Source: an uncultured delta proteobacterium
GTDB lineage: Bacteria; Myxococcota_A; Polyangia; Polyangiales; Polyangiaceae
Assembly (NCBI GenBank): GCA_963763745.1
Contig: CAVXQJ010000001.1
Span: forward strand, 2,431-66,430
DNA length: 64,000 bases
Direction of reading: 5' to 3'
Positions 24,447 through 64,000 of this stretch are shown here, piece after piece. The translations under genes were made by a program, and so were the position numbers. The notes beneath the pieces are model-generated. The model was given only the letters and a program-made list of their open reading frames with translations, did no database searches and was not told the DNA's origin. Position 1 is the stretch's first letter. Each line of letters begins with the position of its first letter.

Positions 24447-24483
24447 CCGGAGACAGTGATTACCACGGACGCGGATTGCTCCG

Positions 24484-39209: not shown

Positions 39210-39218
39210 CGCGAGATT

Positions 39219-40097: not shown

Positions 40098-40130
40098 CGG
40101 AGCCGCTTCAGCATTACTATACTCCGCACC

Positions 40131-44763: not shown

Positions 44764-44777
44764 GCTATCGTCACGAG

Positions 44778-47781: not shown

Positions 47782-47801
47782 AAAGAAGCGATGATGGTCG
47801 C

Positions 47802-48755: not shown

Positions 48756-49869
48756 GCGCGAGCGCGCAAGGCCGAAGGACCTCGCGCGCCACCAGATCCA
48801 TCGCGGCGAAGCCGCGGAGCAGATGGTCGTCATCGAGCTCGGAGAGGAAACGCGCGATCGCGTCGCGCGTCGCGTCCTCGTCGCGCGTCATCGCGAAGTC
48901 GACGATGCGCCACGCGAGCGCCGCGTGACGCTCTTCGTCCGCGGCCATCGCGTCGAGCGCGGCGGAGATCTCCGCGTCGCTCTCGTCACGCGCCATCGCG
49001 CGGAGCTCGAGCGCGGCGCAGGACTCGCCGAGACATCCATCGCGCAGCGCGTCTCGCACGAGCGATGCGACCGACGCGTCCATGCTCGCGCGTGACACGT
49101 CGAGTGGGCCCGGTCCAATGTCGCGCCCCGCGAAGCGCGACGCCATCGAGAAGCACGTCCGCGCGTGATCGATCTCGTCGAGCGCCGCGCGATGCACGTC
49201 TCGGACGAGCTCCGCCGGTGCGCCGAGCGCGAGGAGCGCGAGCGAGATGCGCGCGAACTCCGCGACGGACGCGTGCTCGAGCGTCGCGCCTTTCGCCCAA
49301 AAATCTGCGCGCGTCTCGTCGCGCTCGGCGCGCGCAGCAGCACGTGCCCACGCGCTCGTCTCCTCCGCGCGCGCCGTGATCTCCGCGCCGCCGGCGTCGC
49401 GCAGCGGCCTGCCGATCATCACGCGACCTCCACCACCACGCCGCGTGTTCACGCGGCGCGAGCACCCGCTGAAGCTCACGTAGCAACACAGGTTCGGATC
49501 GTCGTGCCGCTTCTGGTTCGTCTCCATCGGGCTGAAGTGACCGGTCTCGCCGAGCGGCGCGGGATCGCACTTCTCGTAAGGATGCCCGTACGGATACGGC
49601 GGAGGCGACGTGAGCTGCGCCACGCAATTCACGTCGCGCGTGCACGAGCCTTGGTTTGCCGGCGCGTGGGGCTCGATCGCGATGCGATGCGGAGCTGCTT
49701 CGGGCGCGGCATCCGCGATGTCCTCGGTGGTCGAGCCCGCCGTCTCTGCCATCGGAACAACGACGAGCCCATCGGAATCCGGCGACGATTTGCACGCCGC
49801 GAGCCCGAGCACCGCCAGCGCCGTCACGCGCAAACGGGTGACATCAGCGACCTTTACATTACTTTTCAC
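48697..49869 (-). CDS. lipoprotein with Cys-rich N-terminal module and ferritin-like (di-iron carboxylate) C-terminal domain
   Basis: GTG start gives VKSNVKVADVTRLRVTALAVLGLAAC (lipobox). CTRDVNC...CDP...CCYVSFSGC. C-terminal E..H-type helices (ELRAMARDESDAE...ADEERHAALAWR). The upstream half of track ORF 48697..50895 is antisense to the two-component genes. Confidence 0.5.
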   Translation of the reverse strand: MKSNVKVADVTRLRVTALAVLGLAACKSSPDSDGLVVVPMAETAGSTTEDIADAAPEAAPHRIAIEPHAPANQGSCTRDVNCVAQLTSPPPYPYGHPYEKCDPAPLGETGHFSPMETNQKRHDDPNLCCYVSFSGCSRRVNTRRGGGGRVMIGRPLRDAGGAEITARAEETSAWARAAARAERDETRADFWAKGATLEHASVAEFARISLALLALGAPAELVRDVHRAALDEIDHARTCFSMASRFAGRDIGPGPLDVSRASMDASVASLVRDALRDGCLGESCAALELRAMARDESDAEISAALDAMAADEERHAALAWRIVDFAMTRDEDATRDAIARFLSELDDDHLLRGFAAMDLVAREVLRPCALALMSRGPRRSPREGDCAREA

Positions 49870-49926
49870 GCGAGGCCTCCCGTCCCAGGCTGGAAAGGTA
49901 CATCCTGCACGAAAGCACTCAAGCCC

Positions 49927-50610
49927 ATGCGCATCCTGTTGGTCGATGACGACACCGAGCTCGCGGATTTGCTCCGCGAGTACTTTGGCGGACACGAAGT
50001 CACGCTCGACGTGGCCGCGGACGGCGACGGCGGCATCGCAAAGCTCGCGGACGGCGCCTTCGACGCCGTTCTGCTCGACGTGATGCTCCCCGGCGAAGAC
50101 GGTTTCGCCGTGTGCCGGCGCATCCGCGAGACGAGCGACGTGCCCATCATCATGCTGACTGCGCGCGGCAACGACGACGATCGCATCGTGGGTTTGGACC
50201 TCGGAGCCGACGATTATGTTCCGAAACCGTTCAATCCGCGCGAGCTCCTTTCGCGTCTCCGCGCGGTGCTCCGCCGGACGAAGAGCATGGAGGTCGCATC
50301 GCGCATCGTCGTCGGCGACCTCGTCATCGACGTCCCCGCGCAGAAGGTCTCGCTCGGCGCGGTGAACGATCTCGCGCTCACGTCGTTCGAGTTTCGTTTG
50401 CTCGTCGAGCTCGCGCGTCGCGCGGGCCGCATCGTCCGCCGCAGCGAGCTCGCCTCCGCGCTCGACTTCGGCGAGTACGATCCGAGCGTCGATCGCTCGC
50501 TCGACGTCCACATCAGTCACCTCCGCAGCAAGCTCCAAGACGACGCGCGCGATCCCAAGCGCATACGCACCGTGCGCGGCGTCGGCTACGTTCTCGTGAG
50601 ACCTTCGTGA
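49927..50610 (+). CDS. OmpR-family response regulator
   Basis: MRILLVDDD...DAVLLDVMLPGEDGF...LTARG receiver domain plus a winged-helix output domain (RTVRGVGYVL). Confidence 0.9.
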   Translation: MRILLVDDDTELADLLREYFGGHEVTLDVAADGDGGIAKLADGAFDAVLLDVMLPGEDGFAVCRRIRETSDVPIIMLTARGNDDDRIVGLDLGADDYVPKPFNPRELLSRLRAVLRRTKSMEVASRIVVGDLVIDVPAQKVSLGAVNDLALTSFEFRLLVELARRAGRIVRRSELASALDFGEYDPSVDRSLDVHISHLRSKLQDDARDPKRIRTVRGVGYVLVRPS

Positions 50611-50614
50611 AGCC

Positions 50615-51877
50615 ATGAACAAGCTCGGGCTCCGCACGCGGCTCTTCGCGTGGCTCATCGCGGCCATCGTCGCGGGGATGGGCGCGAGCACCGTCGCGTG
50701 GATGCTCCTTCGCTCCGAGCTCGACTCGGGACCGCTCCGCACGATGTCGCGCGCGCTGGGCGCGCAAGTCGCGGATCGATGGGACGATCCGGCCGCCGTC
50801 GACGCATCGATCGAACGCGCACACACCGAGCTCGGCGTCGACATCAAGCTCCGCCGCGACGTGAGCGCGCTTCCACCCGGCGTCGCGACGCACAAGACGG
50901 TCTACTTCGACAGCGACGTCGCATACGTCCCCATCGTCCGCGACGGCCACGTCGTCGGCGCGATTCAATTTCCGGCAGAAGCGCCTCCCGGCAGGAGACT
51001 GCGGCAAGTCGTGTTCTTGGGCGTCGCGCTCATCGTGCTCGCGGTCGCCGCGCGCTCGGTTTCGAAGCTCGTCGTACGTCCGCTCGAGAGCGTCGCGCAC
51101 GCCGCACACCGATTCGGCGATGGAGATCTCAGCGCGCGCGCCGGCGACGTCCCACGCGCGAGCCCGGAGGTCCGCGAGGTCGCGCGCGCGTTCGACGCGA
51201 TGGCCGCGCGCGTCGAGCGCATGGTGCGCGATCAGCGCGAGCTCCTCGCGGCCGTGAGCCACGAGCTCCGTTCGCCGCTCGGCCGCGCGCGCGTCGCCCT
51301 CGAGCTCGCACGCGATCAAGGCGCGAACGCTCCCGCGATCGAGCGCGTCGAACGCTCGATGAGCGAGGTCGACACCATCCTCGGCGACCTCCTCTCGATC
51401 ACGCGCGCCGGCTTGTCCGATTTGCACAAAGAGCCCACGCCGCTCGTTCCGTTCTTGAAGAAGCAATTCGCGGAGTCGGAGTCGGCGAACGTCGTCGTCA
51501 CGGGCGACGAAAAAATCGTCGCAACCGTCGATCCCGCGCTCTTCGGTCGCGCCGTCGCCAACGTCGTCGACAACGCGCGCAACCACGCAGGCCCCGGCGA
51601 AATCCGCGTCACCGTGAAGCCACGAGGCGATCGCGCCATCGTCGCCGTGCTCGATCACGGTCCGGGTCTCGCGCCCGAGATGATCGAAAAAGCATTCGAC
51701 CCGTTCGTGCGCGGCGATCCCGCGAGAAGCCGCAACGGGCATGCATCGACGGGCCTCGGCCTCGCGATCGTGCGCCGCGTGATCGAAGCGCACGGCGGCA
51801 GCGCGACCATTCGCAACGTCGAGCGCGCGGGGAAAATCATCGGAGCCGAGGTCTCGATCGAGCTCCCCGCCGCGTGA
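50615..51877 (+). CDS. sensor histidine kinase (TM, HAMP, HisKA, HATPase_c)
   Basis: H-box AVSHELRSPL, N-box VDNARNHA, and G-boxes DHGPGL and GLGLAIV. The start is 5 nt after the regulator stop. Confidence 0.85.
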   Translation: MNKLGLRTRLFAWLIAAIVAGMGASTVAWMLLRSELDSGPLRTMSRALGAQVADRWDDPAAVDASIERAHTELGVDIKLRRDVSALPPGVATHKTVYFDSDVAYVPIVRDGHVVGAIQFPAEAPPGRRLRQVVFLGVALIVLAVAARSVSKLVVRPLESVAHAAHRFGDGDLSARAGDVPRASPEVREVARAFDAMAARVERMVRDQRELLAAVSHELRSPLGRARVALELARDQGANAPAIERVERSMSEVDTILGDLLSITRAGLSDLHKEPTPLVPFLKKQFAESESANVVVTGDEKIVATVDPALFGRAVANVVDNARNHAGPGEIRVTVKPRGDRAIVAVLDHGPGLAPEMIEKAFDPFVRGDPARSRNGHASTGLGLAIVRRVIEAHGGSATIRNVERAGKIIGAEVSIELPAA

Positions 51878-51903
51878 GTCGGCTATGATCGAAGGCGCAC
51901 GCA

Positions 51904-52545
51904 ATGTGGCGCAAAGTGGTTCGAGTCCTGATCTGGGTTGCGGTCGTGTGCGGCGTCATCGCCGGGATCGTGCTCGCGTTCTTCGAGCCGTGGACCGTGC
52001 CGGGTGACGATGCGCAATTCGCGGTGTCGATCGAGCCGACGATCGGCCCCGGCGATTTGGTGCTCGTCTCGCGCGGCTCGAGCTCATCGGACGGTGCGCT
52101 CGTACGCTGCACCGATCCCGACGCGCCAGGCCGCTTCGTCGTGGGGCGCGTGATCGGTCGCACGGGCGACACAGTCGCGTTCTCGAAGGGCATCATGTAC
52201 GTCAACGCGAAGGTCCCAACGGCGTCATCCGCGTGCGATCCGCCCATCGTTCGCCTCAAGAATCCCGGCACGCAAGACGACGAGGACTTCAACTGCAGCC
52301 TCGAGGAGTTCGCCGGTGCGACTCACCCAGTCCTTCGTTTCGCGAGCGCGTCGGGCGTCGCGCGCGACTCGACCGCACAGGTCGAGCCGGGCAAGATCTA
52401 CCTCGTCAGCGACAACCGCATCCTCCACCTCGACTCGCGCGACTACGGCATGATCGCGCCCGGCACGTGCCAGCACATCGCGTTTCGCCTGTGGGGAACG
52501 AACGGCTGGAGCGACGCGAGAAAACGCCTGACCGTGCTGTGGTAA
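51904..52545 (+). CDS. S26-family signal peptidase I-like protein
   Basis: N-terminal TM helix, SIEPTIGPGDLVLV (matching the SMEPTL..GD box with the catalytic Ser), and VSDNRILHLDSRDYGMI (matching the GDNRDNSxDSR box). Confidence 0.65.
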   Translation: MWRKVVRVLIWVAVVCGVIAGIVLAFFEPWTVPGDDAQFAVSIEPTIGPGDLVLVSRGSSSSDGALVRCTDPDAPGRFVVGRVIGRTGDTVAFSKGIMYVNAKVPTASSACDPPIVRLKNPGTQDDEDFNCSLEEFAGATHPVLRFASASGVARDSTAQVEPGKIYLVSDNRILHLDSRDYGMIAPGTCQHIAFRLWGTNGWSDARKRLTVLW

Positions 52546-52555
52546 TCTCCGGCGC

Positions 52556-53639
52556 GTGAGCACGGAAATCGGCGTGGTGTGCGGCCGCTGCGACGCGTAC
52601 AGCCCGATGCGCACGCTCGCGTGTCCGGCGTGCGGCAACGACCTCGCGCTCTTCAAGGACAAACCCGAAAAACCCCGCTCGGAGCGGGTCACGCAACCGC
52701 GCGATGCCATCGGCTCGAACCCGCCGCTCGCGCGGATGTTCGACGAACCGCTCCACCCGCGAGCACCGATTGCACCCGCGCCCACGAGTCCGCTATCGTC
52801 GCCCACCGGAGGCGGGACCCGCGTCGTCGGCGGTGACCTGTCGCTGGAGGAGCTGATGGAACAAGCGAAGAACTTCCTCTGCCGTTCATGCTCGACGCAA
52901 GTGCCGATGGGGCACAAATTCTGCGGTCGATGCGGCGCCGCAGTGCCGCCGGAGATCTTGAACGCGCGCACGCAGTTCTTCGGCCAGCTGCAGATCCCCG
53001 GCAAGGCGAAGCTGATCTTGATCCGCGGCGAAGGCGTCGAGGGACTCAGCTACCAACTCAACGCCGAGCAGCACGTCGTCGGTCGCAACGGCCAGCTCGT
53101 GTTCCCGGACGATCCGTTCGTCTCGCCGAAGCACGCGAATCTCTTTTACCGAAACAACAAGCTCGTCGTCCGCGACGAAGGCTCGCTGAATGGCGTCTTC
53201 TTGCGCGTGCGCGGCTCGGTCGACATCGAGCCGAAGGACGAGTTTCTCGCGGGCGAGCAGCTCTTCGAGGTCGACGCATCGCCGAAGATCGGCGACGGCC
53301 CATCGTCGGACGGAACGTATTTCTACACGTCGCCGAAGCACCAGTTCCTCTTCCGCATCACGCAGATCCTCCAAGGCGGCGGTCGTGGCATGTCGGTGCT
53401 GCGCGCGCACGAGCTCGCTCCAAATCGGACGCGAGGGCGGCGATCTGAATTTCCCGAACGACCTCTACATGAGCGCGTCGCACTGCAAGATCGAAGAGTC
53501 GGGCGGGAAGCTCACGCTCACCGATCTCAACAGCCGCAACGGCACGTACTTGCGCATCAAGGACGAGCGCGAGCTCGCCCACGGCGATTACCTCTTCATG
53601 GGTCGCAAGCTCCTGCGCGTCGAAATCACCGCGGCGTAA
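52556..53639 (+). CDS. FHA-domain protein with two N-terminal zinc-ribbon motifs; one frameshift near 53400
   Basis: CGRC...CPAC and CRSC...CGRC ribbons, FHA-1 ([25 protein letters not shown]...NGVF), then FHA-2 (...[27 protein letters not shown]...SRNGTYL) in the frame of ORF 53190..53639. Confidence 0.6.
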
Positions 53640-54219
53640 GTGCGCGCCGCGTGAGCGCGCCGATCGCGCGCAGCAACTTGACGGGGACCTGCGTGAGGAG
53701 CGACTCGAGATCGATGGGTCCATCGGTCTTCGGCATGAGCTCCTCGAAGACGATGCCGAAGCGCTCGTATTTTTTTCCGAGCGAGTCGATGCGCTTGCGC
53801 AGCGCCTCAGCCTCCGCGCCGCGCGCGTTGCCGAGCATCGTCATCGCGCGTCGCGAGAGATCCTGTTTGTCGACGATCACCCGGCGGAGCTTCGCGAGGT
53901 ACGCGCCGATGATCACGTCCGGGTAAGGTCCGCGGAGCGCGAAGAGGTCGTGGCGCGCGCCGGGCAAGCGCTTCTTCTCGACGATGCCCGCCGCTTCGAG
54001 CGCGCGCAGGTTCGAGAAGATGTTGCTCTTCGATCGCCCGAGCATGTCGCTCAGCGCGTCCATCGATTGCGGCTCGTCGGCGAGATAAAGCGCCGCGATG
54101 ATCTGCCCACCGAGCCGCGTGATCCCCGGAAAGCTCGCGACCACTTCCGCGCCGACGCCATCGAGCAACGTTCGGCGCGTCGCGCGCACCGGATCTTCGG
54201 TCGAGTCCTCGCTCACCAT
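53626..54219 (-). CDS. GbsR/MarR-family winged-helix transcriptional regulator
   Basis: Internal ATG at 54219 ([10 protein letters not shown]...). HTH region ...[42 protein letters not shown]. It is divergent and only 18 bp from the next gene. Confidence 0.55.
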
Positions 54220-54237
54220 CCGCACTATAAACCGAAG

Positions 54238-56208
54238 ATGCCGAATCGCCTCGCGAACGAAGCGTCCCCGTACCTCCAGCAGCACGCGAAAAACCCCGTC
54301 GATTGGTTCCCCTGGAGCAGCGAAGCGCTCGCGAAGAGCAAGAGCGAAGACAAACCGATCCTCCTCAGCGTGGGTTATTCGGCGTGCCACTGGTGCCACG
54401 TCATGGAGCACGAGAGCTTCGAGGACGAAGCGATCGCCAAAGTGATGAACGAGCATTTCGTCTGCATCAAAGTCGATCGCGAAGAGCGCCCCGACATCGA
54501 TCAGATTTACCAACTCACCGCGCAGCTCCTCGGTCGCAGCGGCGGCTGGCCTCTCACCGTGTTTCTCACGCCCGATCAAAGACCATTTTTCGCGGGCACG
54601 TATTTTCCGCCGACCGATCGCCACGGCATGCCCGCGTTCCCGCGCATCCTTCTCGCCGTCGCCGACGCATACCGCACCAAGCGAGACGAGATCGATCTCC
54701 AAGCGCGCGAGCTCGCCGACGCCATCGCACAGGTCTCACAACCCGAAACGAAAACCGGCGAGCTCTCGACGGCGCTCCTCGCGAAAGCCGCCGAACGCCT
54801 CTCGATGCGCTTCGACGATGTGAATGGCGGCTTCGGATCGCGCCCGAAATTCCCGAGCACGATGAGCCTCGACGTCCTCCTCGCGCACGGGACGCTCAAC
54901 GGCGACGCGCGCGCGCTCGCGCGCGTTCGCAAAGCGCTCGATGGCATGCGCGGCGGCGGCATCTACGATCAGCTCGGCGGCGGCTTTCATCGCTACTCCA
55001 CCGACGAACGCTGGCTCGTGCCGCACTTCGAGAAAATGCTCTACGACAACGCGCTCCTTCTGCGGCTCTACGTCGACGGTTGGCGCGCGTTCGGCGACGA
55101 GCGCTACGCGACCTCCGCGCGTGAAATCGTCGGGTGGCTCGAGCGCGAAATGCTCGATCCGGGCGGCGCGTTCTACGCGACGCAAGACGCCGACAGCGAA
55201 GGTCACGAGGGAAAGTTCTTCGTGTGGACGAAAGACGAAGTTCGCGACGCGTGCGGCGACGACGCGGACCTCGCGTGCGCGCGCTTCGGTGTGACGGACG
55301 AGGGCAACTTCGAAGACTCCTCGTCGAGCGTTCTCCACATCGCCAAATCCATCCAAGACATCGCGCTCGCGAAATCGCTCGCACCGAGCGAAGTCACGCG
55401 GCGCCTCGAAGTCGCGCGCACGAAGCTCCTCGCGCACCGCGAAAAACGCATCAAACCGTTTCGCGACGAAAAGATCCTCGCGTCGTGGAACGGCCTCCTC
55501 ATCGGCGCGCTCGCCGACGCCGCATGCGCGCTTTCCGAGCCCACGTGGCTCGAGCTCGCCGAGCGCGCGTTCGCGTTCGTGATGGAGAAGCTCGTGAAAG
55601 ACGATCGCGTCCTTCGCCACGTCAAAGACGGCGTCCCAAAAGGCCCAGGGTTCCTCGACGACCAAGCGTACGTCGCGTGCGCCGCGATCGATCTCTACGA
55701 GGCCACGGGCAAGAGGGCGTTCCTCGATCGCGCGCGCGCGTTCGCCGAGACGATCCGCAAGCACTTCACCGGCGAAGACGGCGAGCTCTTTCTCACGTCA
55801 GACGATGGGGAGCCTCTCATCGCGCGAACGCAAGACATCTACGACCACGCGATCCCGAGCGCGTCATCCAAAGCACTCGAGCTCTTCATCCGACTTGGCG
55901 AAGAACCGAAGCAGCTCGAATCGCTCGCCGCGTCGGCTGTCGCGAACCCGTTCGGTCTCTCGTCGATCGCGCTCCTCGCCGACCGCGTCGCGCGGACGAG
56001 CACCGAAGTGACGCTCAGCGGAAACCCCAAAGAGCTTTTCGACGCGACCTACCGCGCCTTCATTCCGCACCGCGCCGTCGTGCACAAAGAAGGCACGGAA
56101 GGGTGCGCGTTTGTTTGCCACAACCACGCTTGCTCTCTGCCCGTATCTGGGTATCGTGAGCTGATGGCGCTGGTATCGCCGAAACGCGATACGAGCCCAA
56201 GTCGCTGA
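54238..56208 (+). CDS. thioredoxin-domain protein YyaL (DUF255 plus six-hairpin glycosidase-like domain)
   Basis: [26 protein letters not shown]...[19 protein letters not shown] is the canonical YyaL N-terminus. 656 aa, intact. Confidence 0.85.
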
Positions 56209-56243
56209 AATCATGAACTATCCTACACGCTCTCCAGTGCTCT

Positions 56244-56350
56244 CCGGATCTTCGCGGATCCAGCCTGGGGTATCGTGGATCCAGTCTGTGAAGCTGTAAC
56301 TCGACGACACCATCCAAATTTCCATCACATAGCGATCACGCGACTGGATC
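56244..56350. promoter_or_regulatory. cluster of four GGATC(C) motifs (three within 45 bp, phased about 11 and 21 bp) 50-150 bp upstream of the first flp pilin gene
   Basis: cggatc(56245), cggatcc(56255), tggatcc(56277), tggatcg(56344). The middle pair forms an imperfect direct repeat GGATCCAG(C/T)CTG. Confidence 0.3.
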
Positions 56351-56394
56351 GTTCGATGGCACGAAGGATGGATAGAGAGAGAACGGAGGACGGA

Positions 56395-56568
56395 ATGAAG
56401 GACGCCACCCAACGACGACGTCGCACCCGTGGTGCGGTTCAAGTCGAATACGCGTTCCTTTTGGTTTTCGTGATGGTGCCCGTAGCGGGCGTCCTCCTCG
56501 CTGGTGGTCGGCAGATGTATCAAATGTATCTGACGACGCGCTCGGCGATCCTCAGTTCAAGTCCGTGA
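56395..56568 (+). CDS. flp: Flp/Fap-family type IVb pilin (prepilin)
   Basis: 57 aa. Basic leader ending ...TRG, then AVQVEYAFLLVFVMVPVAG (G|xxxxEY processing motif plus hydrophobic helix). GGAGGA lies 5 nt upstream. Confidence 0.6.
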   Translation: MKDATQRRRRTRGAVQVEYAFLLVFVMVPVAGVLLAGGRQMYQMYLTTRSAILSSSP

Positions 56569-56590
56569 AAACACACAGGAGAGAATCGAT

Positions 56591-56770
56591 ATGAACAAGC
56601 TCGTCAAGTCCAACAAGTTCTCGAAGCTCATTGCCGACAAAAAAGGCGCGACGATGGTCGAGTACGCCATCCTCCTCTTCTTGATCCTCGTCATCGCGGC
56701 GATCGTCTACAAGAAGGTCGGTAGCAGCGTGTCGGGCGCCGGTGACTCCGCGGTGCAGCAATTCACCTGA
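56591..56770 (+). CDS. flp: Flp/Fap-family type IVb pilin (prepilin)
   Basis: 59 aa: MNKLVKSNKFSKLIADKKG|ATMVEYAILLFLILVIAAIVY.... Textbook Flp motif. AGGAGAG lies 8 nt upstream. Confidence 0.8.
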   Translation: MNKLVKSNKFSKLIADKKGATMVEYAILLFLILVIAAIVYKKVGSSVSGAGDSAVQQFT

Positions 56771-56817
56771 GTTGATCGCCTGACGGAACTCTCTCCTACG
56801 GTGGTAGAAGAGGAAGC

Positions 56818-57357
56818 ATGATCTACTTCCTCGTGGCGGCAGCGATCATCAGTGCGATCGCTGCTGCCTCGGACCTTCGGACTGGAGAGATCCCGAACTG
56901 GCTTTCGTTGGGTGCCCTGCTCATCGCTCCCGTCGCGCACCTCGTATTCGCGGTGACGAGACACATGACAGGGCACGATGCGTTGTTCGAAGGTGGGAGT
57001 TCCATCCTAGGCGCCATCCTGTGTTCGGTCGTTCCTGCGATTCTTTATCGACAGGACGCCATCGGTGGCGGTGACCTGAAGCTGCTTGCTGCGACTGGCG
57101 CTGTGTTGCAACCACGCCTCGGCCTCGAAGCGGAAATGTATTCCTTCTTCGCAGCCGGACTAATCGCTCCCGCGTTTTTGGCCTACGAGGGAAAGCTGTT
57201 TCGGACGCTCAAGAACACAGCATTGCTTGCAGTGAATCCCCTGCTACCTAAAAAGAAGAGGCGGCAGGTGGAGCCAGCGCTCTTGACATGGTTTCGTTTC
57301 GGGCCGGCCATTTTCATCGGGACGTCGATAACTGCCTACCTGCATTGGAGAACCTGA
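56818..57357 (+). CDS. cpaA: A24-family Flp prepilin peptidase CpaA/TadV
   Basis: 179-aa polytopic protein with the two catalytic Asp contexts (AASDLRTGEIPN and GGGDLKLLAA). Confidence 0.85.
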   Translation: MIYFLVAAAIISAIAAASDLRTGEIPNWLSLGALLIAPVAHLVFAVTRHMTGHDALFEGGSSILGAILCSVVPAILYRQDAIGGGDLKLLAATGAVLQPRLGLEAEMYSFFAAGLIAPAFLAYEGKLFRTLKNTALLAVNPLLPKKKRRQVEPALLTWFRFGPAIFIGTSITAYLHWRT

Positions 57358-57833
57358 TGGGTAAGAGAGAAGGGATAGTGCGAGCGCGAAGGGGAGCGGT
57401 CCTCGCTGAGTTCGCCATCGCCTTCATGCCGATATGCACCATCTTCTTGTGCCTCTGTCAGCTGTCTCGTTACTCCATCGCTCGCCTCGCGGTTCTCCAT
57501 GCCGCGCAGGTGAGCGCTCGCGCATGTGCGGTCATCATCGATCCAGACCCCGGACACGACGCTCCAACACCCCTCGATGGTCCCGACACGGACGTCCAGC
57601 GAGCCGCGCAAGTCGCGATGCAGCCGTTCGAGGGTAGCAGCGGCGAAATCACGCATACGCCGCCCACGTGCGATCATGACGGCGTCGAGAACGGTGGAAC
57701 GGACACCGTCACGATGGACGCGCAATACACGTGCCAGATTCCGGTGGCGAAGCGCATCGTGTGCTCATCCGGGACGAAGAACTTCACGGTCCACGCGCAG
57801 TTCCCGCATCAGGGCGCACGGTACAAACTCTAG
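57357..57833 (+). CDS. TadE-like pseudopilin
   Basis: Start overlaps the cpaA stop (TGATG). N-terminal RRGAVLAEFAIAFMPICTIFL TadE/TadG-type prepilin motif. Confidence 0.7.
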   Translation: MGKREGIVRARRGAVLAEFAIAFMPICTIFLCLCQLSRYSIARLAVLHAAQVSARACAVIIDPDPGHDAPTPLDGPDTDVQRAAQVAMQPFEGSSGEITHTPPTCDHDGVENGGTDTVTMDAQYTCQIPVAKRIVCSSGTKNFTVHAQFPHQGARYKL

Positions 57834-57842
57834 GAGCGTTCC

Positions 57843-59651
57843 ATGTCGGCAAACGTGATCGCCAACTCAAGTCCGCTCGACAAGGTCAAAGACAATCGCG
57901 GCGCCATCATGGTCGTCGGGATTTTCTTTGCGTGCGTGATGATTGGATGGATGTGGATGCTCGTCGGCCTCGGCGACGCGATGATCTGGCGCGATCGATC
58001 GCAAGAAGCCGCAGACTCGATGAGCTATTCGTCCGCTGCGATTCAAGCGCAGGGAATGAACCTCATCTCGTTCATCAACATCCTCATGTTGATTCTGACG
58101 GCCGTCTATCTGCTGATGTCGTTCGTCTACAACATCCTCGACTTCATGCACGTCGTCCTCGGAAGCGACGTGGACAACGCGAAGTGCATGCCCACGTCGT
58201 GCGGCGTGCGCAAAGCGGACATGACGCTTCTCTCGCAGGTCCCGTACCTCGAGTGGCTCGAGCCCGTCGCGAATTACTGGTGCGACGCAGCGAAGATCGT
58301 GGGAGAGCTCCACGACGGAAGAACCAACGGAGCACCTGGCGCGCCCAGCGTGGGTTGGCTCCTCGGTGGCCTCGAGACGATCATGGTCGACACCATGCCC
58401 GTGCTCTCCACCTTCGAGGACTTCGTCTCGTACGCATTTCCGTGGGCGGGCGAGCTCGTCGGCGCTTACACGGCAACACAATACAAGGATTGGGGCAAAG
58501 ACAGATGGGGTCTACCCATCAGTGCCACGCTGATACCCGCCACCACATCACCAGGCCAACCAGGCACGTTGATGCCCGCGAAGAAGTATGCGTCGTGCGC
58601 GGACCCGAAATGCTCGACCCCGCTCAACTGTGATGCTCACGATCCGCAGTCGTGCGCGCAGTACAACGGTGGCGACAAGCGTGAAGGTCTTCCCGTCGAG
58701 ATTCCGGACAATGGCTTTACGGCGATTTGCGATTACGCCAGCGCCAAGGTGTCCACTGCAGCGAAGAACGCAGTCAGCAGCATGCTCGGCGGCGGCATGC
58801 TCGGGACCATCGTCGGAACGCTCACGGGTTGGGTGACGAAGGCGATCGGAAGTGCGGTCACCAACGCGTATTGCAAACACGACTCGACGGGCCTCTTCCA
58901 CGGTGCCGACGACACCGTTGCGAGCATCCTGATTCCAATCACGGCGATCCAAACCGGTGGCTGGAAGAACAAGGAAAAGTGCCCTCACGACAACTGGGGA
59001 CACGGCAACAGCGGCTCGTGCGGTGGTCCGGACACCTGCAACAAAGTCTACGAGATGCAGTACAAGAACCAGAACTTCTGGGAAGACCCGTCGTTCGCGG
59101 GTGGTCCGCACCTCGTCGTCCAATACGCATCGAACGGCAACGACTGGATGCAAGTGTGGGGCGCGGTTTGGGGCGGCAATCGCGTCGAGCAATCCGAGAA
59201 GCTCGTTGGCGTCGCGGGCATGGACTCGAACGGGAGCGGGACTTGGAACACCATCATCCCGCAAAACTCCGAGTCGCTCTTCAGCCTCTATCTCTCGCAA
59301 GCGGAATTCTATTTCGATTGCAACGACAAGTGGTCGACGGACGCCTGCAACAAGAACAACAACGCGTCCTACAACATCGCTTGGCGCGCTCGCCTGCGTC
59401 GCGTGCGCGGGTTGTCGTGGGGTCAAGACCTGTTCGGTTATGTGTGGAACGGTTCGCTCGGTTCGACGTTCGACGGCGAGGTGAAGAAGGTCATCTCGGG
59501 TGCGATGGGCTCGGCGTTCTCGAATCCGCTCGTAGGCAAGGGAGCCACGCTGGCCGCCAACGCGGGCTACACCGCGCTGAAGGGCTACGCAGGCAACGCC
59601 TTGGGTAGTGCGTTCAACCCAGCATCCGCAATTCCGGACTACATCCATTGA
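57843..59651 (+). CDS. TadG-like large pseudopilin / pilus-tip-associated protein, Cys-rich
   Basis: 602 aa. N-terminal DNRGAIMVVGIFFACVMIGWMWMLVGLG pilin-like helix, then a large Cys/Gly/Asn-rich extracellular region. GC is ~56%. Confidence 0.6.
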   Translation: MSANVIANSSPLDKVKDNRGAIMVVGIFFACVMIGWMWMLVGLGDAMIWRDRSQEAADSMSYSSAAIQAQGMNLISFINILMLILTAVYLLMSFVYNILDFMHVVLGSDVDNAKCMPTSCGVRKADMTLLSQVPYLEWLEPVANYWCDAAKIVGELHDGRTNGAPGAPSVGWLLGGLETIMVDTMPVLSTFEDFVSYAFPWAGELVGAYTATQYKDWGKDRWGLPISATLIPATTSPGQPGTLMPAKKYASCADPKCSTPLNCDAHDPQSCAQYNGGDKREGLPVEIPDNGFTAICDYASAKVSTAAKNAVSSMLGGGMLGTIVGTLTGWVTKAIGSAVTNAYCKHDSTGLFHGADDTVASILIPITAIQTGGWKNKEKCPHDNWGHGNSGSCGGPDTCNKVYEMQYKNQNFWEDPSFAGGPHLVVQYASNGNDWMQVWGAVWGGNRVEQSEKLVGVAGMDSNGSGTWNTIIPQNSESLFSLYLSQAEFYFDCNDKWSTDACNKNNNASYNIAWRARLRRVRGLSWGQDLFGYVWNGSLGSTFDGEVKKVISGAMGSAFSNPLVGKGATLAANAGYTALKGYAGNALGSAFNPASAIPDYIH

Positions 59652-59659
59652 GGCGCCCC

Positions 59660-60235
59660 ATGACCAAACACTCAAGACGACGAAGGCAACGTGGTGTCGC
59701 GATGGTCGAGGCGGGGATTCTGGCGCCCATCTTCGCCATGATGATGATGATGACCATCAACTTGATGGGCGTGTACGAAACGAAATACCGCAGTTGCATG
59801 CTGTCGCGTTACGCGACGATGTCGTACGCATCGAACCACTGCACCAACAACGAGTTCAAACCCATCACGAACGACTTGCCACCGGGCATCAAGGCTGGCT
59901 CGGCTGCATCGCAAGGCTCGCAGGGCACCTCGGTCACGGACCCGCAGGATCAAAACGGCGGCACGGCGTCGAACAAGTACACGAGCCAGGCGCCAAACTC
60001 TCAGGGTGCCCAAGCCGCTTCGTCGATGTTCATGGGTCACGGCACTTCGACGCTGACGTGGGACTACAGCCCCACGTACCGCTTCAACCAAAACGGGCCG
60101 AAGCAAATCACGACGACGGGTCAATGCGTGTGCAACACGCCGCCGCCGCAAGGGGCCATTCGACTACCTCACGAACATCCTCGGCACGGTATTCTAGAGA
60201 GGCCGCATGCTCTTCCATCTCTACCTCCTCGGTAA
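59660..60235 (+). CDS. TadE-like pseudopilin (3' end uncertain; possible frameshift giving an alternative end at ~60197)
   Basis: MTKHSRRRRQRGVAMVEAGILAPIFAMMMMMTINL N-terminal motif. The tail ...PFDYLTNILGTVF* in the adjacent frame looks more protein-like than the in-frame ending. Confidence 0.6.
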   Translation: MTKHSRRRRQRGVAMVEAGILAPIFAMMMMMTINLMGVYETKYRSCMLSRYATMSYASNHCTNNEFKPITNDLPPGIKAGSAASQGSQGTSVTDPQDQNGGTASNKYTSQAPNSQGAQAASSMFMGHGTSTLTWDYSPTYRFNQNGPKQITTTGQCVCNTPPPQGAIRLPHEHPRHGILERPHALPSLPPR

Positions 60236-61194
60236 GGTTTCCAAGAAACGGCTTCTCGGCACCGCGCGCGTGCTCGTTTACGGCACGGTGGTGACGGCTG
60301 GTCTCGGCGCGCTCACGGTCCGAAACGCGGTCGCCGACACGGAGACGCGCAGCCTCGAGCTCGGACGCAAGCTCGCAGGGCTTCAAGATCTACTGCACGG
60401 CGCGCAAGAGTTCCGGTTGAACGGACAGAGCGTCTACTTCTCTGCCACGGAGTCCGACGACTCGGTCTCCAAGGTGCTCGACCGCTTCGAGAATCATTGC
60501 AACAGCTCCCACGCGTTCGAGGCGCTCAAGTGGAAGTCGCTCGGCGACGTGAAAGGCCAGGACATGGAGAAAGCCGGCGTGAGCCGGTTTGGTGTCGTTC
60601 GCAAGGAGGACGAGACGGCGCACGACGGTGTCGTCATGTGCTTCACGAAGGACAACGGTCCGAAGGACTTCCTCACGGCGCTCGACGCGTTCCGCGTGTC
60701 TGGCGATCTCCACGACCTCGGTGACGTGCGCTACGTCCACGCGGTCCGCAGAGACTCGAACACGTACATTCAAGTGATGTGGACGGAGGGAAGCTTCAAC
60801 ATCCGCAACATCATGGGCACGCCGGGAGAGGATTCGGTCGGCTCCGACTTCGCGAACATCCCGCGCCCGATCGCACTCGACGCGCACGATCACGGCCGAA
60901 GCGCTCAACACGCCGTACTCCGCGCGCGTGTACGAGTCGAGCGACGAGCCCGACGCGATTCTCGGTGCGTACTCGAGCAAGCTCCTCTCGGAGGGTTGGT
61001 CGTCGGCGACCTCGCCGGCTGTCGGAATGGACAAGATGGGTCTCGACGGTCGCATCTTCATCCGACCGGAGTCGGCGGAGCAGGCAGTCGTCTCGGTCAC
61101 CAAAAACAAAGACAACGGCAAGACGATGATCGTCGTGGCATCGGTCGGCCAGACACCGTCCGCCGACCAACTGCACACTGTGGGGCCCCGATGA
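60207..61194 (+). CDS. hypothetical membrane-anchored protein, last gene-but-one of the pilin operon; one frameshift near 60885
   Basis: N-terminal TM helix LLGTARVLVYGTVVTAGLGALTV. The protein-like sequence continues in the frame of ORF 60928..61194 (...VYESSDEPDAILGAYSSKLLSEGW...). The stop overlaps the next start (ATGA). Confidence 0.45.
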
Positions 61195-62060
61195 AACGAG
61201 TCGTCCTTCTGGTTGCGTTGATGCTGATGGTGGTGGGCATCCCCACGGCGAACGCACAACAGCAGCAGGTGCAGCCCATCCCGGAGGTCCCCAAGCCGGA
61301 TCACCCGCTGCCGCTGCTGCGATTTCCCGCGCCCGCAGCAACATACGATCTCTACGTCCAGTACTGGCTCCAGCTCATTCGCACGGCGGGGCAGCGCTAC
61401 CACGTTGGACCCGGCGAGACGGACAAAGTGGTCCTCCTCGTGAAGGACTGCGCGATGCGAGTCGAGGCGGACGGATACGTGACGCAGGGCGAGGCGCGGG
61501 ATTGCCGCGTGATGGCGATGACGAAGATGCACGAGATCGCGACGCCCTACATCGTGCAGGCCGCGGCAGGAAAACTGACGTCTCGCGCAGCGTTCATTCT
61601 CGCGCTCGTCGCGGCTTGCAACGAGGCTCCGAAGCCCACCGCCACGGACGCGTCGATCGCGACGGCGACGCCGTCGTCCGCTTCGGCGGTCGTGGACAGC
61701 GGTGCAAGCGCCGTCATCGTGGACGCGGAAGCCGACGTCGACGTCGCCGCGTTGATGGAGAGAGGGCTCGTGTTGCTCGAGGACGCGGCAACATCGTGCA
61801 CGCCAACATCGGCGATTGCGACGCGATGGCCGATCGTGTGGAAGAGTATCGCGCAGAAGCACCTCGATGGGGTCGCGCAGGTCGAGACGATGTACGAGCA
61901 AAAGCACGAGACCGAGCGAAAGCAGATCCAGCCGCAATTCCGAAAACGATTCAAGGCGGCGTGGGCGAACATTCGTCCCGGCATCGACGAAATGCAGGGG
62001 CACGCCGAAGGTGAATCGCGTCATCCACGAGATCTGGGGCGACACCGACGCCCGACGCTA
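61191..62060 (+). CDS. hypothetical secreted protein
   Basis: Signal peptide MKRVVLLVALMLMVVGIPTANAQQQQ. 289 aa. Confidence 0.5.
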
Positions 62061-62083
62061 GTGAATAGCGAGCGCGCCGATCA

Positions 62084-63197
62084 TCATCTCGTAGTGGCGG
62101 CGCAAGCGATCTCTGCATGGCCGAGAGGCGCGCCTCGAAGGAGAAGTCGCCGCTGACGAGCGAGAGCGCGTTGTCGAGCTTCGCGGCGGGCCTGGTCGAT
62201 AGGTATGGCGCGAGGTAGAGCTCCTCGAGCTCCGTGTCGGACGATGAACTCGCGGATCTTGCTCGAGGCCGTCGCGTCGCAGAGGTACTCGTCCATCACG
62301 AGGAACGGAACGTCCTGCGCGAACGCGGCGAGCATCGCGTGCCATCGCGTGCACAAATGGAGATCGAGCGCGCCGACGAGGCGCCAGCGCTCGAGCGCGG
62401 TCAGGCGCGCGGTCACGATCTTCGCGCCTGGGATCGCCGCGTGCGCCATCCGTTGGAGCTCCGAGTCTCCGTAGATCTCGCCGAACGGCATGATGACGAG
62501 CTCGATGCTGCGTTTGGCGACGAGCTTGCTCAGCGTCGAGAAGAGCTCGTTGTAGAAGAACTGATGCGCGACCATCGCGCACCGAAGTGCCGACGGAGAG
62601 ACCCGACGACGAACGCGCTCGTGTCGACGCCCGCGGCGCGCAGTGTGCGCTCGCCGAAGTCGTCGCCCGTGGGAGCGAGAGGAGCAGCGTCGGATCGGGG
62701 ACGACGTGGATCGTCGCCTGCGAAGCCGCACCGCCGAACGAATCGCGCAGTCAGCGCGTTGCGCACGCTCACGTAGGCGAGCGCCTCGCAGCAGCGCGCG
62801 ACGCGCGCGTAGTCGTCTCGTGGTCGACGAGGTACGCCGGCGTGGCCTCCGCGCCGATCGCGTTCCAGCAGCCGGGGACGTCGCGGTTCCAGTCGGCTCG
62901 CGATCGCCGAGCAAGAACGGCCTGAAGTCGGGCTCGAGACGGATGATGCCGCCGCCGCCGATGACGACCGCGTCGAGCCCTTGGCCCAGCGCACGGAATC
63001 GTCCGCGGGAATGCGCGTGATGGGCGCGCCGAGGCCGCGCTCTCCGTCCCACGCGTGATGCCAAATGTTGCCGCGGAGCTCGGGCGCGAAGAGCGACTTG
63101 CTCCGCGTCGGGAAGGCGCGCGCGAAACGCTTGCCGCACGGCGTATCCGAGGAGCTGGTCGCCCGGCGTTGTCGATCGAGTACGCGCCGAGAAAACC
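62084..63197 (-). pseudogene. polysaccharide pyruvyl transferase family protein, about 6 frameshifts
   Basis: MKRIGFLGAYSIDNAG..., ...GNIWHHAWDGE..., ...DAVVIGGGGII..., ...YVSVRNALTARF...PDPTLL..., ...MVAHQFFYNELFS...HLCTRWHAMLAAF... scattered over all three reverse frames. Confidence 0.5.
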
Positions 63198-63449
63198 GAT
63201 GCGCTTCATGAGGCCAGAGTACGTCTCGACGAGGTCGGCCGCTTTGGGGAGCGCGGCGGCCTCGGCGCGGTAGCGGCCTGACGTTCGCGGAGCGCGGCGC
63301 GCGCCGTCGTCGTCGAAGAGCAGGCGATCCATCGCGAGAAACGAACGCGGTCTCTTCGAGCACCTCGACCATCTCGATGGCCGTCGTGTACGGATTGTCT
63401 CGCGCGAGTGGCGCGAGGAATCGTGAAGAGACCGAGCGGCCACACGCGA

Positions 63450-64000
63450 AACGCGGGAGCGGCGCGGCCTCGTCGAGCCACGCGCGCAAGCGCTGGCGAC
63501 GGGGGCTCGGGAGTTTCGACGCGATCTCGTCCGTGCGCTTCCCGCGTGCGAGTTCACGCCGAGCACGACGGGAATGCCCCGACGCGATCGCCGACGCGAT
63601 CGTCGTCGCCGAGAAGTTGAAGCTGAGGAGCAAGTCGGCGGCGGCGAGCGTCTTCGCGAAACGCGCCGGGCTGCGCTGCGGGAGCCACGTGTAGCGATCG
63701 CCGAGCGCGTCATCGAACGGAAGGCGCGTCGGGCCCGACGTGCACGACGTGAACGCGCGTGCGCCAAGCCCGCGAGGCGCTCGCGCCGACGAGCTTCGGA
63801 AAGAGGAGCGCGAGGCGGCGTCCGCTCTCGTGCGCTTGGCTGTCCGGCTCTTGCCAGCGCGCGGACGTGAAGAGCACGATGCGATCGCCTTCGCGCGCGC
63901 CGAAGTCCGCGCGCATCTCTTCACGCTCTTCGGCGTCCAGTTCGGTCGGGCTCGGCAGCGCGTTGTAGAGGCCCTTCGCGCCGGTCGGGCGGTGCGAACG
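63450..64000 (-). pseudogene. glycosyltransferase (GT4-like) C-terminal part, frameshifted; gene continues beyond the window edge
   Basis: ...GDRIVLFTSARWQEPD...RRLALLFPKLV...VHVVHVGPD... then ...AKTLAAADLLLSFNFSATTIASAIASG|IPVVLGVNSH across three frames. The lower boundary is unclear. Confidence 0.35.

What the first reader, a model, noticed from the sequence alone, without database searches (positions are those of the whole stretch)
56209..62060. Lower-GC Tad/Flp pilin operon without adjacent secretion machinery (possible Kil-like contact-killing pilin set)
Eight tightly packed, co-oriented genes with ATGA/TGATG overlaps encode two Flp pilins, a CpaA/TadV prepilin peptidase, TadE-like, TadG-like (602 aa, Cys-rich) and TadE-like pseudopilins, and two unknown envelope proteins. 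The stretch is ~55-58% GC against ~69% on both flanks and has almost no frameshifts, which suggests recent horizontal acquisition. No secretin (CpaC/RcpA), CpaB, TadZ/CpaE, TadA/CpaF ATPase or TadB/TadC genes lie in or next to it. The flanks are a YyaL thioredoxin gene and polysaccharide genes. In Myxococcus the Tad-like Kil prey-killing apparatus is split across separate clusters, so this may be the pilin/pseudopilin half of such a system. The two C-terminal unknown proteins could be cargo or tip factors.
Basis: partly seen in the sequence, partly recalled or inferred. Interest (0 to 1): 0.75.

Follow-up and report, generated by a model that had tools for sequence, protein, structure and literature searches.

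The report
Stand-alone Tad pilus-tip gene module
This is a conserved operon in uncultured Polyangiaceae (myxobacteria) that encodes only the filament and tip parts of a Tad pilus, a copy of the pilin half of complete Tad loci in related bacteria, so it probably supplies an alternative tip to a pilus machine encoded elsewhere, as in Myxococcus prey killing.

Summary
Window 56395-62061 (+) holds nine co-oriented genes, not eight: two Flp pilins, a short A24 prepilin peptidase, three minor pilins in the order TadE-like, large Cys-rich TadG-like, TadE/F-like, then a membrane-anchored ~330-aa protein (p335), a secreted ~129-aa protein (p129) and a lipoprotein. No Tad motor, platform, CpaB or secretin gene was found anywhere in the 64 kb, nor within 10 kb in any orthologous locus. 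In other Myxococcota MAGs the same first seven genes, collinear and homologous gene by gene, sit directly upstream of CpaB, secretin, an FHA-fused TadA ATPase, TadB and TadC. The window locus is therefore a stand-alone paralogue of the pilin half of a complete Tad/Kil-like locus. The closest known analogue is the scattered kilM-kilN-kilL "Tip" clusters of Myxococcus xanthus (Herrou 2025). The horizontal-transfer idea fails. The lower GC recurs in the three orthologous loci measured, flanks are syntenic, and dS matches the flanks with dN/dS of 0.09-0.6. The 3' third has at least six frameshifts, as does the downstream flank, which points to assembly noise. I could not show a machine in the same genome. 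Verdict: new variant of a known kind, moderate interest.

The parts
49927..51877 (+). Context: OmpR-type response regulator (49927-50607) and HAMP/HisKA histidine kinase (50615-51877). They are conserved upstream of most orthologous stand-alone modules whose flank is long enough to show them.
   Evidence: Pfam on the kinase. Pfam tables of L001, L002 and L005. Profile hits and tblastn.
51904..53640 (+). Context: S26 signal peptidase I (51904-52545) and a double-zinc-ribbon + FHA protein (52556-53640, frameshifted near 53400-53440 in the window). Both are conserved upstream of the module. In L013 the FHA gene directly abuts the flp genes.
53638..56208 (.). Context: MarR/TrmB-like regulator (53638-54201, minus strand) and YyaL/Thioredox_DsbH protein (54238-56208, plus strand). 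Present in most but not all orthologous loci; absent in L013.
56209..56394 (+). Conserved non-coding leader/promoter region. It has three GGATC(CA) boxes and an invariant TGGCACGAA-N3-TGGATA motif about 25 nt before the flp1 ATG. No sigma-70-like site and no Rfam match.
   Evidence: Alignment of four genomes. Scans.
56395..56568 (+). flp1: 57-aa Flp-type pilin. Leader MKDATQRRRRTRG, then cleavage motif G/AVQVEY and a hydrophobic helix.
   Evidence: Sequence. 81-84% identical orthologues. 37% identical to the first flp of the complete locus L049. No Pfam hit above threshold.
56591..56770 (+). flp2: 59-aa Flp-type pilin with G/ATMVEY motif. Same length as the KilO adapter pilin of M. xanthus Tip3.
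   Evidence: Pfam Flp_Fap E=1.5e-4, 21.9 bits, below the 32.2 cut-off. Orthologues 81-86%. 41% identical to the Pfam-positive Flp of L049.
56818..57357 (+). Short (179-aa) A24 prepilin peptidase of the CpaA/TadV/KilA type. Both Asp motifs are present: SDLRTGEIPN and GGGDLK.
   Evidence: PF01478 E=3e-13. 28% identity over 88 aa to the 179-aa KilA, with GxGD aligned. An identical gene lies on an independent 3.3-kb contig.
57357..57833 (+). Minor pilin 1, TadE/KilM-like, 158 aa. Motif G/AVLAEF; 7 conserved Cys.
   Evidence: PF07811 27.2 bits, above the 22.9 cut-off. Cys counts. 33% identical to TadE173 of L049.
57843..59651 (+). Large minor pilin, TadG/KilN-like, 602 aa. Leader ending RG|AIMVV and a hydrophobic alpha1 helix. 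Two long helices (52-106, 170-212) plus a beta core. 15 Cys. Invariant C-terminal ...PD.IH.
59660..60196 (+). Minor pilin 3, TadE/TadF/KilL-like, about 178 aa. Motif G/VAMVEA. Frameshift near 60140-60150 in the window; the true C-terminus ...GPFDYLTNILGTVF is in another frame.
   Evidence: PF07811 17.2 bits, below cut-off. Orthologue tblastn. Frame inspection.
60207..61194 (+). p335: bitopic membrane protein of about 330 aa. N-terminal TM helix, then two periplasmic alpha/beta domains of the Mog1/PsbP/DcrB fold. One frameshift at 60873 in the window.
61191..61578 (+). p129: secreted protein of about 129 aa with signal peptide ...PTANA|QQ and 2 conserved Cys. In the window its stop codon is lost by an extra A in the run at 61571-61574.
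   Evidence: Found in stand-alone modules only. Duplicated together with the large pilin in L016.
61554..62061 (+). Putative lipoprotein (lipobox LVAAC) with a conserved C-terminal domain of about 100 aa. Three frameshifts in the window.
   Evidence: Orthologues in L001, L002 and L007.

Best explanation
The operon is a stand-alone pilin-and-tip module of a Tad (type IVc) pilus.

Proposed mechanism:
1. The two Flp prepilins and the three minor prepilins insert into the inner membrane.
2. The short A24 peptidase encoded in the operon cleaves them after the conserved Gly of G/XXXXE (inferred).
3. The TadE-like, large TadG-like and TadE/F-like proteins are proposed to form a disulfide-stabilised tip complex. 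That complex would prime filament assembly and display the distal domain of the large pilin (inferred by analogy with KilM-KilN-KilL).
4. One Flp would act as filament or adapter subunit.
5. p335, anchored in the inner membrane with two periplasmic Mog1/PsbP-like domains, is a general assembly or docking factor of this pilus lineage (inferred from its fixed place in complete loci).
6. p129, and perhaps the lipoprotein, are partners specific to this paralogue of the large pilin.

The module has no ATPase, platform, CpaB or secretin. It must therefore be assembled in trans by a Tad/Kil-like machine encoded elsewhere. It most likely gives that machine an alternative tip. The conserved upstream two-component system and FHA protein probably control it.

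Shown: gene content, motifs, synteny, paralogy to the pilin half of complete loci, purifying selection. Inferred: trans assembly, tip complex formation, any role in contact-dependent killing.
For: Gene content and motifs.

No machinery:
- None in 64 kb of window.
- None within 10 kb in the orthologous loci or in the one paralogous locus retrieved.

Relatives in complete loci:
- The same seven genes in the same order directly precede RcpC/CpaB, secretin, FHA+T2SSE, and two T2SSF genes in L048 and L049 (Pfam).
- About 20 further loci show the same.
- Pairwise homology window vs L049: flp1 37%, flp2 41%, A24 44%, TadE 33%, TadG 24% over full length (E=1e-22), TadE/F 21%, p335 31%.

Multiplicity:
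- Two stand-alone modules occur in one MAG, L007 and L010, both from SMAG_U5184.
- Tandem duplicated large pilins occur in L014, L016, L017 and L018.

Selection: dN/dS 0.09-0.6.

Match to the KilN description:
- The large pilin is Cys-rich.
- It has long helices plus a beta core.
- It has no PDB homologue.

Literature:
- M. xanthus uses four kilM-kilN-kilL Tip clusters away from the kil machinery. One has its own 59-aa Flp adapter, and there is a 179-aa peptidase KilA (PMC12075869).
- Cultured Polyangiales (Labilithrix, Minicystis, Sandaracinus) carry KilB/C/F/G/H homologues but no recognised Tip (PMC10196010).
Against: - A Tad/Kil machine in the same genome was not demonstrated. The source contig beyond the window could not be fetched. 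None of the 120 closest FHA-TadA homologues lies on a contig of the length of any stand-alone-module contig.
- Some Polyangiales genera (Sorangium, Polyangium) are reported to lack Tad machinery (PMC10196010).
- Tip complex formation could not be modelled, because no multimer prediction was available.
- Direct sequence or structure comparison with M. xanthus KilL, KilM and KilN was not possible. The AFDB fold library was unavailable and no sequences were at hand.
- The 3' third of the operon is frameshifted in this assembly.
- Pfam does not recognise flp1 or the large pilin.
Confidence: 0.62

Rival explanations
1. It is the only pilin set of a split Tad/Kil system. The machine cluster elsewhere in this genome has lost its own pilin genes. 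The locus is then the essential filament half rather than an alternative or accessory tip.
For: The M. xanthus kil genes are split over distant clusters (PMC8460266). The module carries everything needed on the pilin side, including two Flp genes and a peptidase.
Against: In every complete locus retrieved, the pilin half is contiguous with the machine. One MAG has two stand-alone modules, one of them without a peptidase. p129 marks the stand-alone copies as a distinct paralogue lineage.
Confidence: 0.2
2. It is a decaying, non-functional duplicate of the pilin half of a tad locus.
For: At least six frame disruptions lie between 60.1 and 62.06 kb in the window. There is no adjacent machinery.
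Against: Orthologues in other MAGs are intact. dN/dS is 0.09-0.6, similar to the flanking genes. The downstream housekeeping-type genes carry just as many frameshifts, which points to assembly error. An independent 3.3-kb contig encodes identical A24, TadE and 602-aa proteins. The upstream non-coding motifs are conserved.
Confidence: 0.07
3. It is a recently acquired genomic island, as the first reader proposed from the lower GC.
For: GC is 55-62% against 64-71% in the flanks. flp1 and the peptidase gene have lower GC3, 0.62-0.71.
Against: The same GC profile and the same low GC3 of flp1 and A24 recur in L001, L002 and L005. Flanking synteny is conserved down to about 30% identity of the large pilin. 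dS equals that of the flanks. No tRNA search was run, and none of the Pfam scans or orthologue gene tables I ran turned up an integrase.
Confidence: 0.03
4. The pilins are assembled by a different type IV filament machine (T4aP or T2SS), or they act as membrane or periplasmic proteins without forming a pilus.
For: No Tad machine could be shown in the same genome. Prepilin peptidases and some pilins are promiscuous (discussion in PMC12075869).
Against: All seven core genes have their closest non-orthologous relatives inside canonical tad loci. Flp pilins are known to be assembled by Tad machines (established knowledge).
Confidence: 0.08

Closest known systems
Myxococcus xanthus Kil 'Tip' clusters: kilM-kilN-kilL (Tip1 MXAN_0354-0356, Tip2 0738-0740, Tip3 1146-1148 with Flp adapter KilO MXAN_1150, Tip4 4658-4660) and the peptidase KilA (Herrou et al. 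2025, PMC12075869)
   Same: - Three adjacent minor-pilin genes in the order small TadE-like, large TadG-like, TadE/F-like.
- G/XXXXE-type cleavage motifs on the two small minor pilins; the large one has the Gly but no Glu at +5.
- A Cys-rich large pilin with long helices plus a beta scaffold and no PDB homologue.
- A location away from the motor and secretin genes.
- A 59-aa Flp gene in the cluster, as in Tip3.
- A short 179-aa A24 peptidase, the same length as KilA with GxGD aligned.
- Several paralogous modules per genome in some relatives.
   Different: - Found in uncultured Polyangiaceae, where the authors' Tip HMMs found nothing in the cultured genera they list.
- Carries two Flp genes and its own peptidase inside the module.
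- Carries three further conserved genes (p335, p129, lipoprotein).
- Has a conserved two-component system, S26 peptidase and FHA gene neighbourhood.
- The whole module is a copy of the first seven genes of a contiguous tad locus, not only of the three minor pilins.
- Homology to KilL, KilM and KilN was not tested directly. No predation phenotype is known.
Canonical contiguous tad/cpa loci (flp-tadV-rcpCAB-tadZABCDEFG; Caulobacter cpa). Here the Myxococcota version was seen in L019, L023, L028, L041, L048, L049 and L050.
   Same: Flp pilins, A24 peptidase, TadE-like and TadG-like pseudopilins. There is gene-by-gene homology of 21-44% to the first seven genes of L049.
   Different: No CpaB/RcpC, secretin, TadA, TadB/C, TadZ or TadD next to it. 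It has the extra p129 and lipoprotein genes. Pfam TadG (PF13400) and the Flp model do not reach threshold.
Minor-pilin tip complexes of other type IV filaments (T2SS GspHIJK; T4aP PilVWX-FimU-PilY1; V. cholerae TcpB-TcpF)
   Same: The concept of a priming tip complex with a large modular subunit, and possible docking of a secreted partner.
   Different: Different pilin class: Flp/Tad, with a class III signal peptide. No sequence relationship was shown.

Membership tests
Tad/Flp pilin gene set | Flp pilin: 50-80 aa, basic leader, G/XXXXEY cleavage motif, hydrophobic helix | tested here: met
   flp1 is 57 aa with RG|AVQVEY. flp2 is 59 aa with KG|ATMVEY. Both are homologous to flp genes of complete loci, one of them Pfam-positive.
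Tad/Flp pilin gene set | Pfam Flp_Fap (PF04964) at the gathering score | tested here: not met
   flp2 scores 21.9 bits against a cut-off of 32.2. flp1 has no hit.
Tad/Flp pilin gene set | A24 prepilin peptidase with two catalytic Asp | tested here: met
   PF01478 scores 50.5 bits against a cut-off of 26.5. The motifs SDL... and GGGD are present, and GxGD aligns with KilA.
Tad/Flp pilin gene set | TadE-like pseudopilins (PF07811) | tested here: met
   The gene at 57357-57833 scores 27.2 bits against a cut-off of 22.9. The second gene (59660-60196) scores only 17.2 bits but has G|VAMVEA.
Tad/Flp pilin gene set | TadG recognised by a curated model (PF13400 or NCBIfam) | tested here: not met
   No Pfam hit. 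Only a weak TIGR03816 N-terminal hit at 18 bits. The assignment rests on its position between two TadE-like genes and on full-length relatives in complete tad loci.
Complete Tad secretion/pilus locus | TadA/CpaF ATPase, TadB/C platform, CpaB/RcpC and secretin in the same locus | tested here: not met
   None in the 64-kb window. None within 10 kb in L001-L017.
Kil 'Tip' cluster (Herrou 2025) | Adjacent kilM-kilN-kilL-type genes, each with a leader and a prepilin cleavage site | tested here: met
   The order is small, large, small. Motifs are G|AVLAEF, G|AIMVV (no Glu at +5) and G|VAMVEA.
Kil 'Tip' cluster (Herrou 2025) | Large KilN-type pilin with long helices plus a beta scaffold and no PDB homologue; many Cys | tested here: met
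Kil 'Tip' cluster (Herrou 2025) | Encoded away from the machine clusters | tested here: met
Kil 'Tip' cluster (Herrou 2025) | Sequence homology to Tip1-4 proteins (authors' HMMs, E<1e-25) | not tested
   No KilL, KilM or KilN sequences or HMMs were available and the AFDB library was offline. The authors' table lists no Tip hit in Labilithrix, Minicystis or Sandaracinus.
Kil 'Tip' cluster (Herrou 2025) | Predicted heterotrimer with an alpha1N bundle that docks on the Flp filament | not testable with these tools
   Only monomer prediction was available.
Kil 'Tip' cluster (Herrou 2025) | Function depends on the Kil machine; role in contact-dependent prey killing | not testable with these tools
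   This needs genetics in a cultured relative.

The most novel reading that the evidence does not exclude
The stand-alone modules may be exchangeable tip cassettes in which each large TadG/KilN-like pilin is paired with a cognate secreted p129 protein. p129 could be a periplasmic chaperone, a co-delivered factor, or an immunity-like partner. The cassettes would be switched on by their own two-component system and FHA circuit, which would programme what a single Tad machine does on contact. In that reading, p335 is a previously unrecognised universal component of Myxococcota Tad/Kil machines that hands minor pilins to the platform. A more extreme version is that genomes with the module lack any Tad machine and another filament system assembles it.
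Probability: 0.15. Interest if true: 0.7.

Novelty: new variant of a known kind. Interest (0 to 1): 0.48.

Why it matters
Tad pili with interchangeable tips were described only in 2025, and only for Myxococcus and its close relatives. The same study found no Tip genes in the cultured Polyangiales genera it lists.

This locus points to a comparable arrangement in an uncultured Polyangiaceae lineage, reached by a different route: duplication of the whole pilin half of the tad locus. The duplicate includes Flp pilins, a peptidase and the p335 protein. It has since gained a paired secreted partner (p129) and sits in a conserved regulatory neighbourhood.

It gives concrete candidates for three open questions:
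- How tips are chosen: the two-component system, the FHA protein and the conserved operator-like boxes.
- How minor pilins are handed to the machine: p335.
- What tips carry: p129.

These proteins have no annotation today. All of this is comparative inference on MAGs, so the value is as a lead, not a demonstrated mechanism.

Tried and rejected
- Fetching the source contig beyond the window. The exact-protein look-up returned only a 3.3-kb contig without DNA.
- Foldseek against AFDB, to test similarity of the large pilin to M. xanthus KilN. The library was not available.
- Linking a TadA ATPase to a genome that carries a stand-alone module. I compared contig lengths and sample ids among the 120 best FHA-TadA homologues. 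The only matches were to contigs that already hold complete loci. Two long-contig hits came from other MAGs.
- Naming distant family members through cluster look-up. None of the 10 carried a useful name.
- A riboswitch or structured leader upstream of flp1. There was no Rfam match (best E=0.87). RNAalifold gave no covariation support, with a covariation term of +2.12.
- A sigma-70 promoter or intrinsic terminator scan was not informative.
- The horizontal-transfer reading was rejected.
- Pseudogenisation was considered and judged unlikely.
Full report
**What is in the sequence**

Between 56395 and 62061 on the + strand lies a tight operon. I delimited it by ORF listing and by comparison with intact orthologues from two other assemblies, L001 and L002. 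It has nine genes, not eight:

| Gene | Coordinates | Notes |
|---|---|---|
| flp1 | 56395-56568 | 57 aa, RG\|AVQVEY |
| flp2 | 56591-56770 | 59 aa, KG\|ATMVEY |
| A24 prepilin peptidase | 56818-57357 | 179 aa |
| TadE-like minor pilin | 57357-57833 | 158 aa, G\|AVLAEF, 7 Cys |
| TadG-like pilin | 57843-59651 | 602 aa, RG\|AIMVV, 15 Cys |
| Second TadE/F-like pilin | 59660-60196 | G\|VAMVEA |
| p335 | 60207-61194 | about 330 aa, membrane-anchored |
| p129 | 61191-61578 | about 129 aa, secreted |
| Lipoprotein | 61554-62061 | lipobox LVAAC |

Pfam support is uneven:
- The peptidase scores 50.5 bits and the first TadE-like gene 27.2 bits. Both are above their cut-offs.
- flp2 (21.9 bits) and the second TadE-like gene (17.2 bits) are below cut-off.
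- flp1, the 602-aa protein and the three downstream proteins have no hit.
- NCBIfam adds nothing beyond weak hits.

An independent 3.3-kb contig from a public sequencing run encodes identical 179-, 158- and 602-aa products. The 5' two-thirds of the operon are therefore reliable.

**Frameshifts**

The 3' third is not clean in this assembly:
- a shift near 60145 in the third minor pilin;
- one at 60873 in p335;
- an A-run at 61571-61574 that removes the p129 stop codon;
- three shifts in the lipoprotein gene.

The PS_pyruv_trans and DUF6365 genes downstream are just as broken. I read this as assembly noise from about 60.1 kb to the window end, not decay of this operon.

**No machine nearby**

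- Pfam on the 20 largest ORFs of window 1-53000 found no T2SSE, T2SSF, secretin or RcpC.
- I built CpaB, secretin, FHA-ATPase, TadB and TadC profiles from related Myxococcota loci. I searched all six frames of the window and of 48 fetched loci with them.
- The window and every orthologous or paralogous stand-alone locus (L001-L018) were negative.
- The gene tables with 10-kb flanks agree.

**Not a recent import**

- The locus sits between the same genes in other MAGs: response regulator, histidine kinase, S26 peptidase, zinc-ribbon/FHA protein, usually MarR and YyaL upstream, and polysaccharide or LGT genes downstream.
- That holds even where the large pilin is only 30-40% identical.
- The GC dip is real but recurs in L001, L002 and L005.
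- It is mainly a first-codon-position effect. GC3 is 0.73-0.92, except for flp1 and the peptidase gene, which are low in all four genomes.
- Against L001 and L002, dS is 0.4-1.5 for operon genes and 0.58-0.84 for flanking genes. dN/dS is 0.09-0.6.
- This pattern indicates vertical inheritance under purifying selection.

**What it is related to**

- The 602-aa protein has 92 close homologues, and every one that carries an organism name is from a Myxococcota or Polyangiaceae MAG.
- A profile search finds 1105 cluster representatives.
- A scan of species-representative genomes returned 43 loci, all Myxococcota MAGs.
- In about 20 of them the large pilin sits in a complete locus. The order is flp, flp, A24, TadE-like, TadG-like, TadE/F-like, p335, RcpC/CpaB, secretin, FHA-fused T2SSE ATPase, two T2SSF genes, then a 290-aa FHA-like protein.
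- Pfam confirms this for L048 and L049. My profiles confirm it for the others.
- The window's first seven genes match the first seven of L049 one by one: 37, 41, 44, 33, 24 (full length, E=1e-22), 21 and 31% identity.

The window locus is thus a stand-alone paralogue of the pilin half of a contiguous tad locus. p129 occurs only in the stand-alone type. One MAG has two stand-alone modules (L007 and L010). Others have tandem duplicates of the large pilin, and in L016 each copy is followed by its own p129.

**Structures**

- The AF2 model of the large pilin has pLDDT 72 and pTM 0.69. It shows an N-terminal hydrophobic helix, two very long helices and a beta core.
- This fits the published description of KilN, but I could not compare them directly.
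- The model of a p335 orthologue has pLDDT 78. It has an N-terminal membrane helix and two alpha/beta domains.
- That fold is common in periplasmic binding or chaperone-like proteins. The function of p335 is inferred only from its fixed position between minor pilins and CpaB.

**Comparison with what is known**

Herrou et al. 2025 (PMC12075869) showed the following for the M. xanthus Kil Tad pilus:
- It is tipped by four interchangeable complexes.
- These are encoded by kilM-kilN-kilL clusters scattered away from the machine genes.
- They are Cys-rich, and the large variable KilN sits at the end.
- Tip3 has its own 59-aa Flp adapter, KilO.
- The short peptidase KilA matures some tips.

The window peptidase is the same length as KilA (179 aa). 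It aligns over the GxGD region at 28% identity over 88 aa, E=2e-4.

Their HMMs found Tip genes almost only in Myxococcales. In Labilithrix, Minicystis and Sandaracinus they list only KilB, C, F, G and H homologues. Another survey reports Tad machinery in some Polyangiales genera but not in Sorangium or Polyangium.

The window locus works like a Tip cluster by anatomy. It also differs:
- It includes two Flp genes, a peptidase, p335, p129 and a lipoprotein.
- It arose as a copy of the whole pilin half of a tad locus.
- It keeps a conserved regulatory neighbourhood.

Membership in the Tip1-4 families is untested and, from the authors' table, unlikely at the sequence level.

**Mechanism and confidence**

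I commit to trans assembly by a Tad/Kil-like machine encoded elsewhere, with the three minor pilins forming a tip (confidence 0.62).

Shown: content, motifs, paralogy, synteny, selection. Inferred: cleavage by the encoded peptidase, tip formation, dependence on a distant machine, any role in contact killing.

The main gap is that I could not show a machine in the same genome.

**Verdict**

The horizontal-transfer reading is rejected. This is a new variant of a known kind, of moderate interest.

Noticed in passing
window 56209-56394 (also L001 8351-8557, L002 8353-8548, L005 8366-8560): The leader upstream of flp1 keeps invariant blocks across four genomes. There are three GGATC(CA) boxes, the first two about 11 bp apart, which resembles direct repeats bound by OmpR-type regulators. 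There is also TGGCACGAA-N3-TGGATA about 25 nt before the ATG. That motif resembles a sigma-54 -24/-12 element, except that the -12 GC is GG.
   Followed up: partly
window 49927-53640; L001-L017 upstream flanks: An OmpR-type response regulator, a histidine kinase, an S26 signal peptidase and a double-zinc-ribbon/FHA protein are conserved upstream of the stand-alone module. This holds even where the large pilin is about 30% identical. In L013 the FHA gene directly abuts the flp genes.
   Followed up: partly
window 60100-64000: The density of frameshifts is high here. There are at least six in the operon's 3' genes and at least five in the PS_pyruv_trans homologue at 62067-63209 (minus strand), and the DUF6365 homologue is also split across two reading frames. 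By contrast there are none in 56.4-60.1 kb and one or two in the FHA gene near 53400. This looks like local assembly error.
   Followed up: partly
L016 1954-6221; L014 7990-11575; L017 6594-11722; L018: Tandem duplicated TadG/KilN-like genes are 64-77% identical. In L016 each is followed by its own p129 gene, and the two p129 copies are 49% identical. This suggests that the large pilin and p129 duplicate as a pair.
   Followed up: partly
L019, L023, L028, L029, L031-L035, L037-L039, L041-L044, L046, L048, L049: A p335 homologue (TM helix plus two Mog1/PsbP/DcrB-like domains) is encoded between the minor pilins and CpaB in every complete Myxococcota tad locus examined. It has no Pfam or NCBIfam family.
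   Followed up: partly
L049 10001-21764; L050 8545-20419: Complete tad loci with an FHA-fused TadA are followed by a TPR protein and a second, shorter T2SSE ATPase. They lie immediately upstream of rpsL-rpsG-fusA. This conserved chromosomal address could be used to find the machine in other genomes.
   Followed up: no
window 59600-59651 (C-terminus of the 602-aa protein): All 50 aligned family members end in a conserved ...NPAS..PD.IH motif with an invariant C-terminal His. The region has low model confidence and unknown meaning.
   Followed up: no
window 56395-56568 and 56818-57357: flp1 and the peptidase gene have clearly lower GC3 (0.62-0.71) than their neighbours (0.73-0.92), and this holds in all four genomes compared. 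flp2 has high GC3 (0.83-0.90). This may reflect different expression levels.
   Followed up: no
window 37434-41342 (-), 24463-26517 (-), 48700-50901 (-), 47730-48752 (+): Several large ORFs of 340-730 aa with coding-like GC3 have no Pfam family. A ComEC homologue lies at 42352-44838 (-) and an MMPL transporter at 22263-24488 (-).
   Followed up: no
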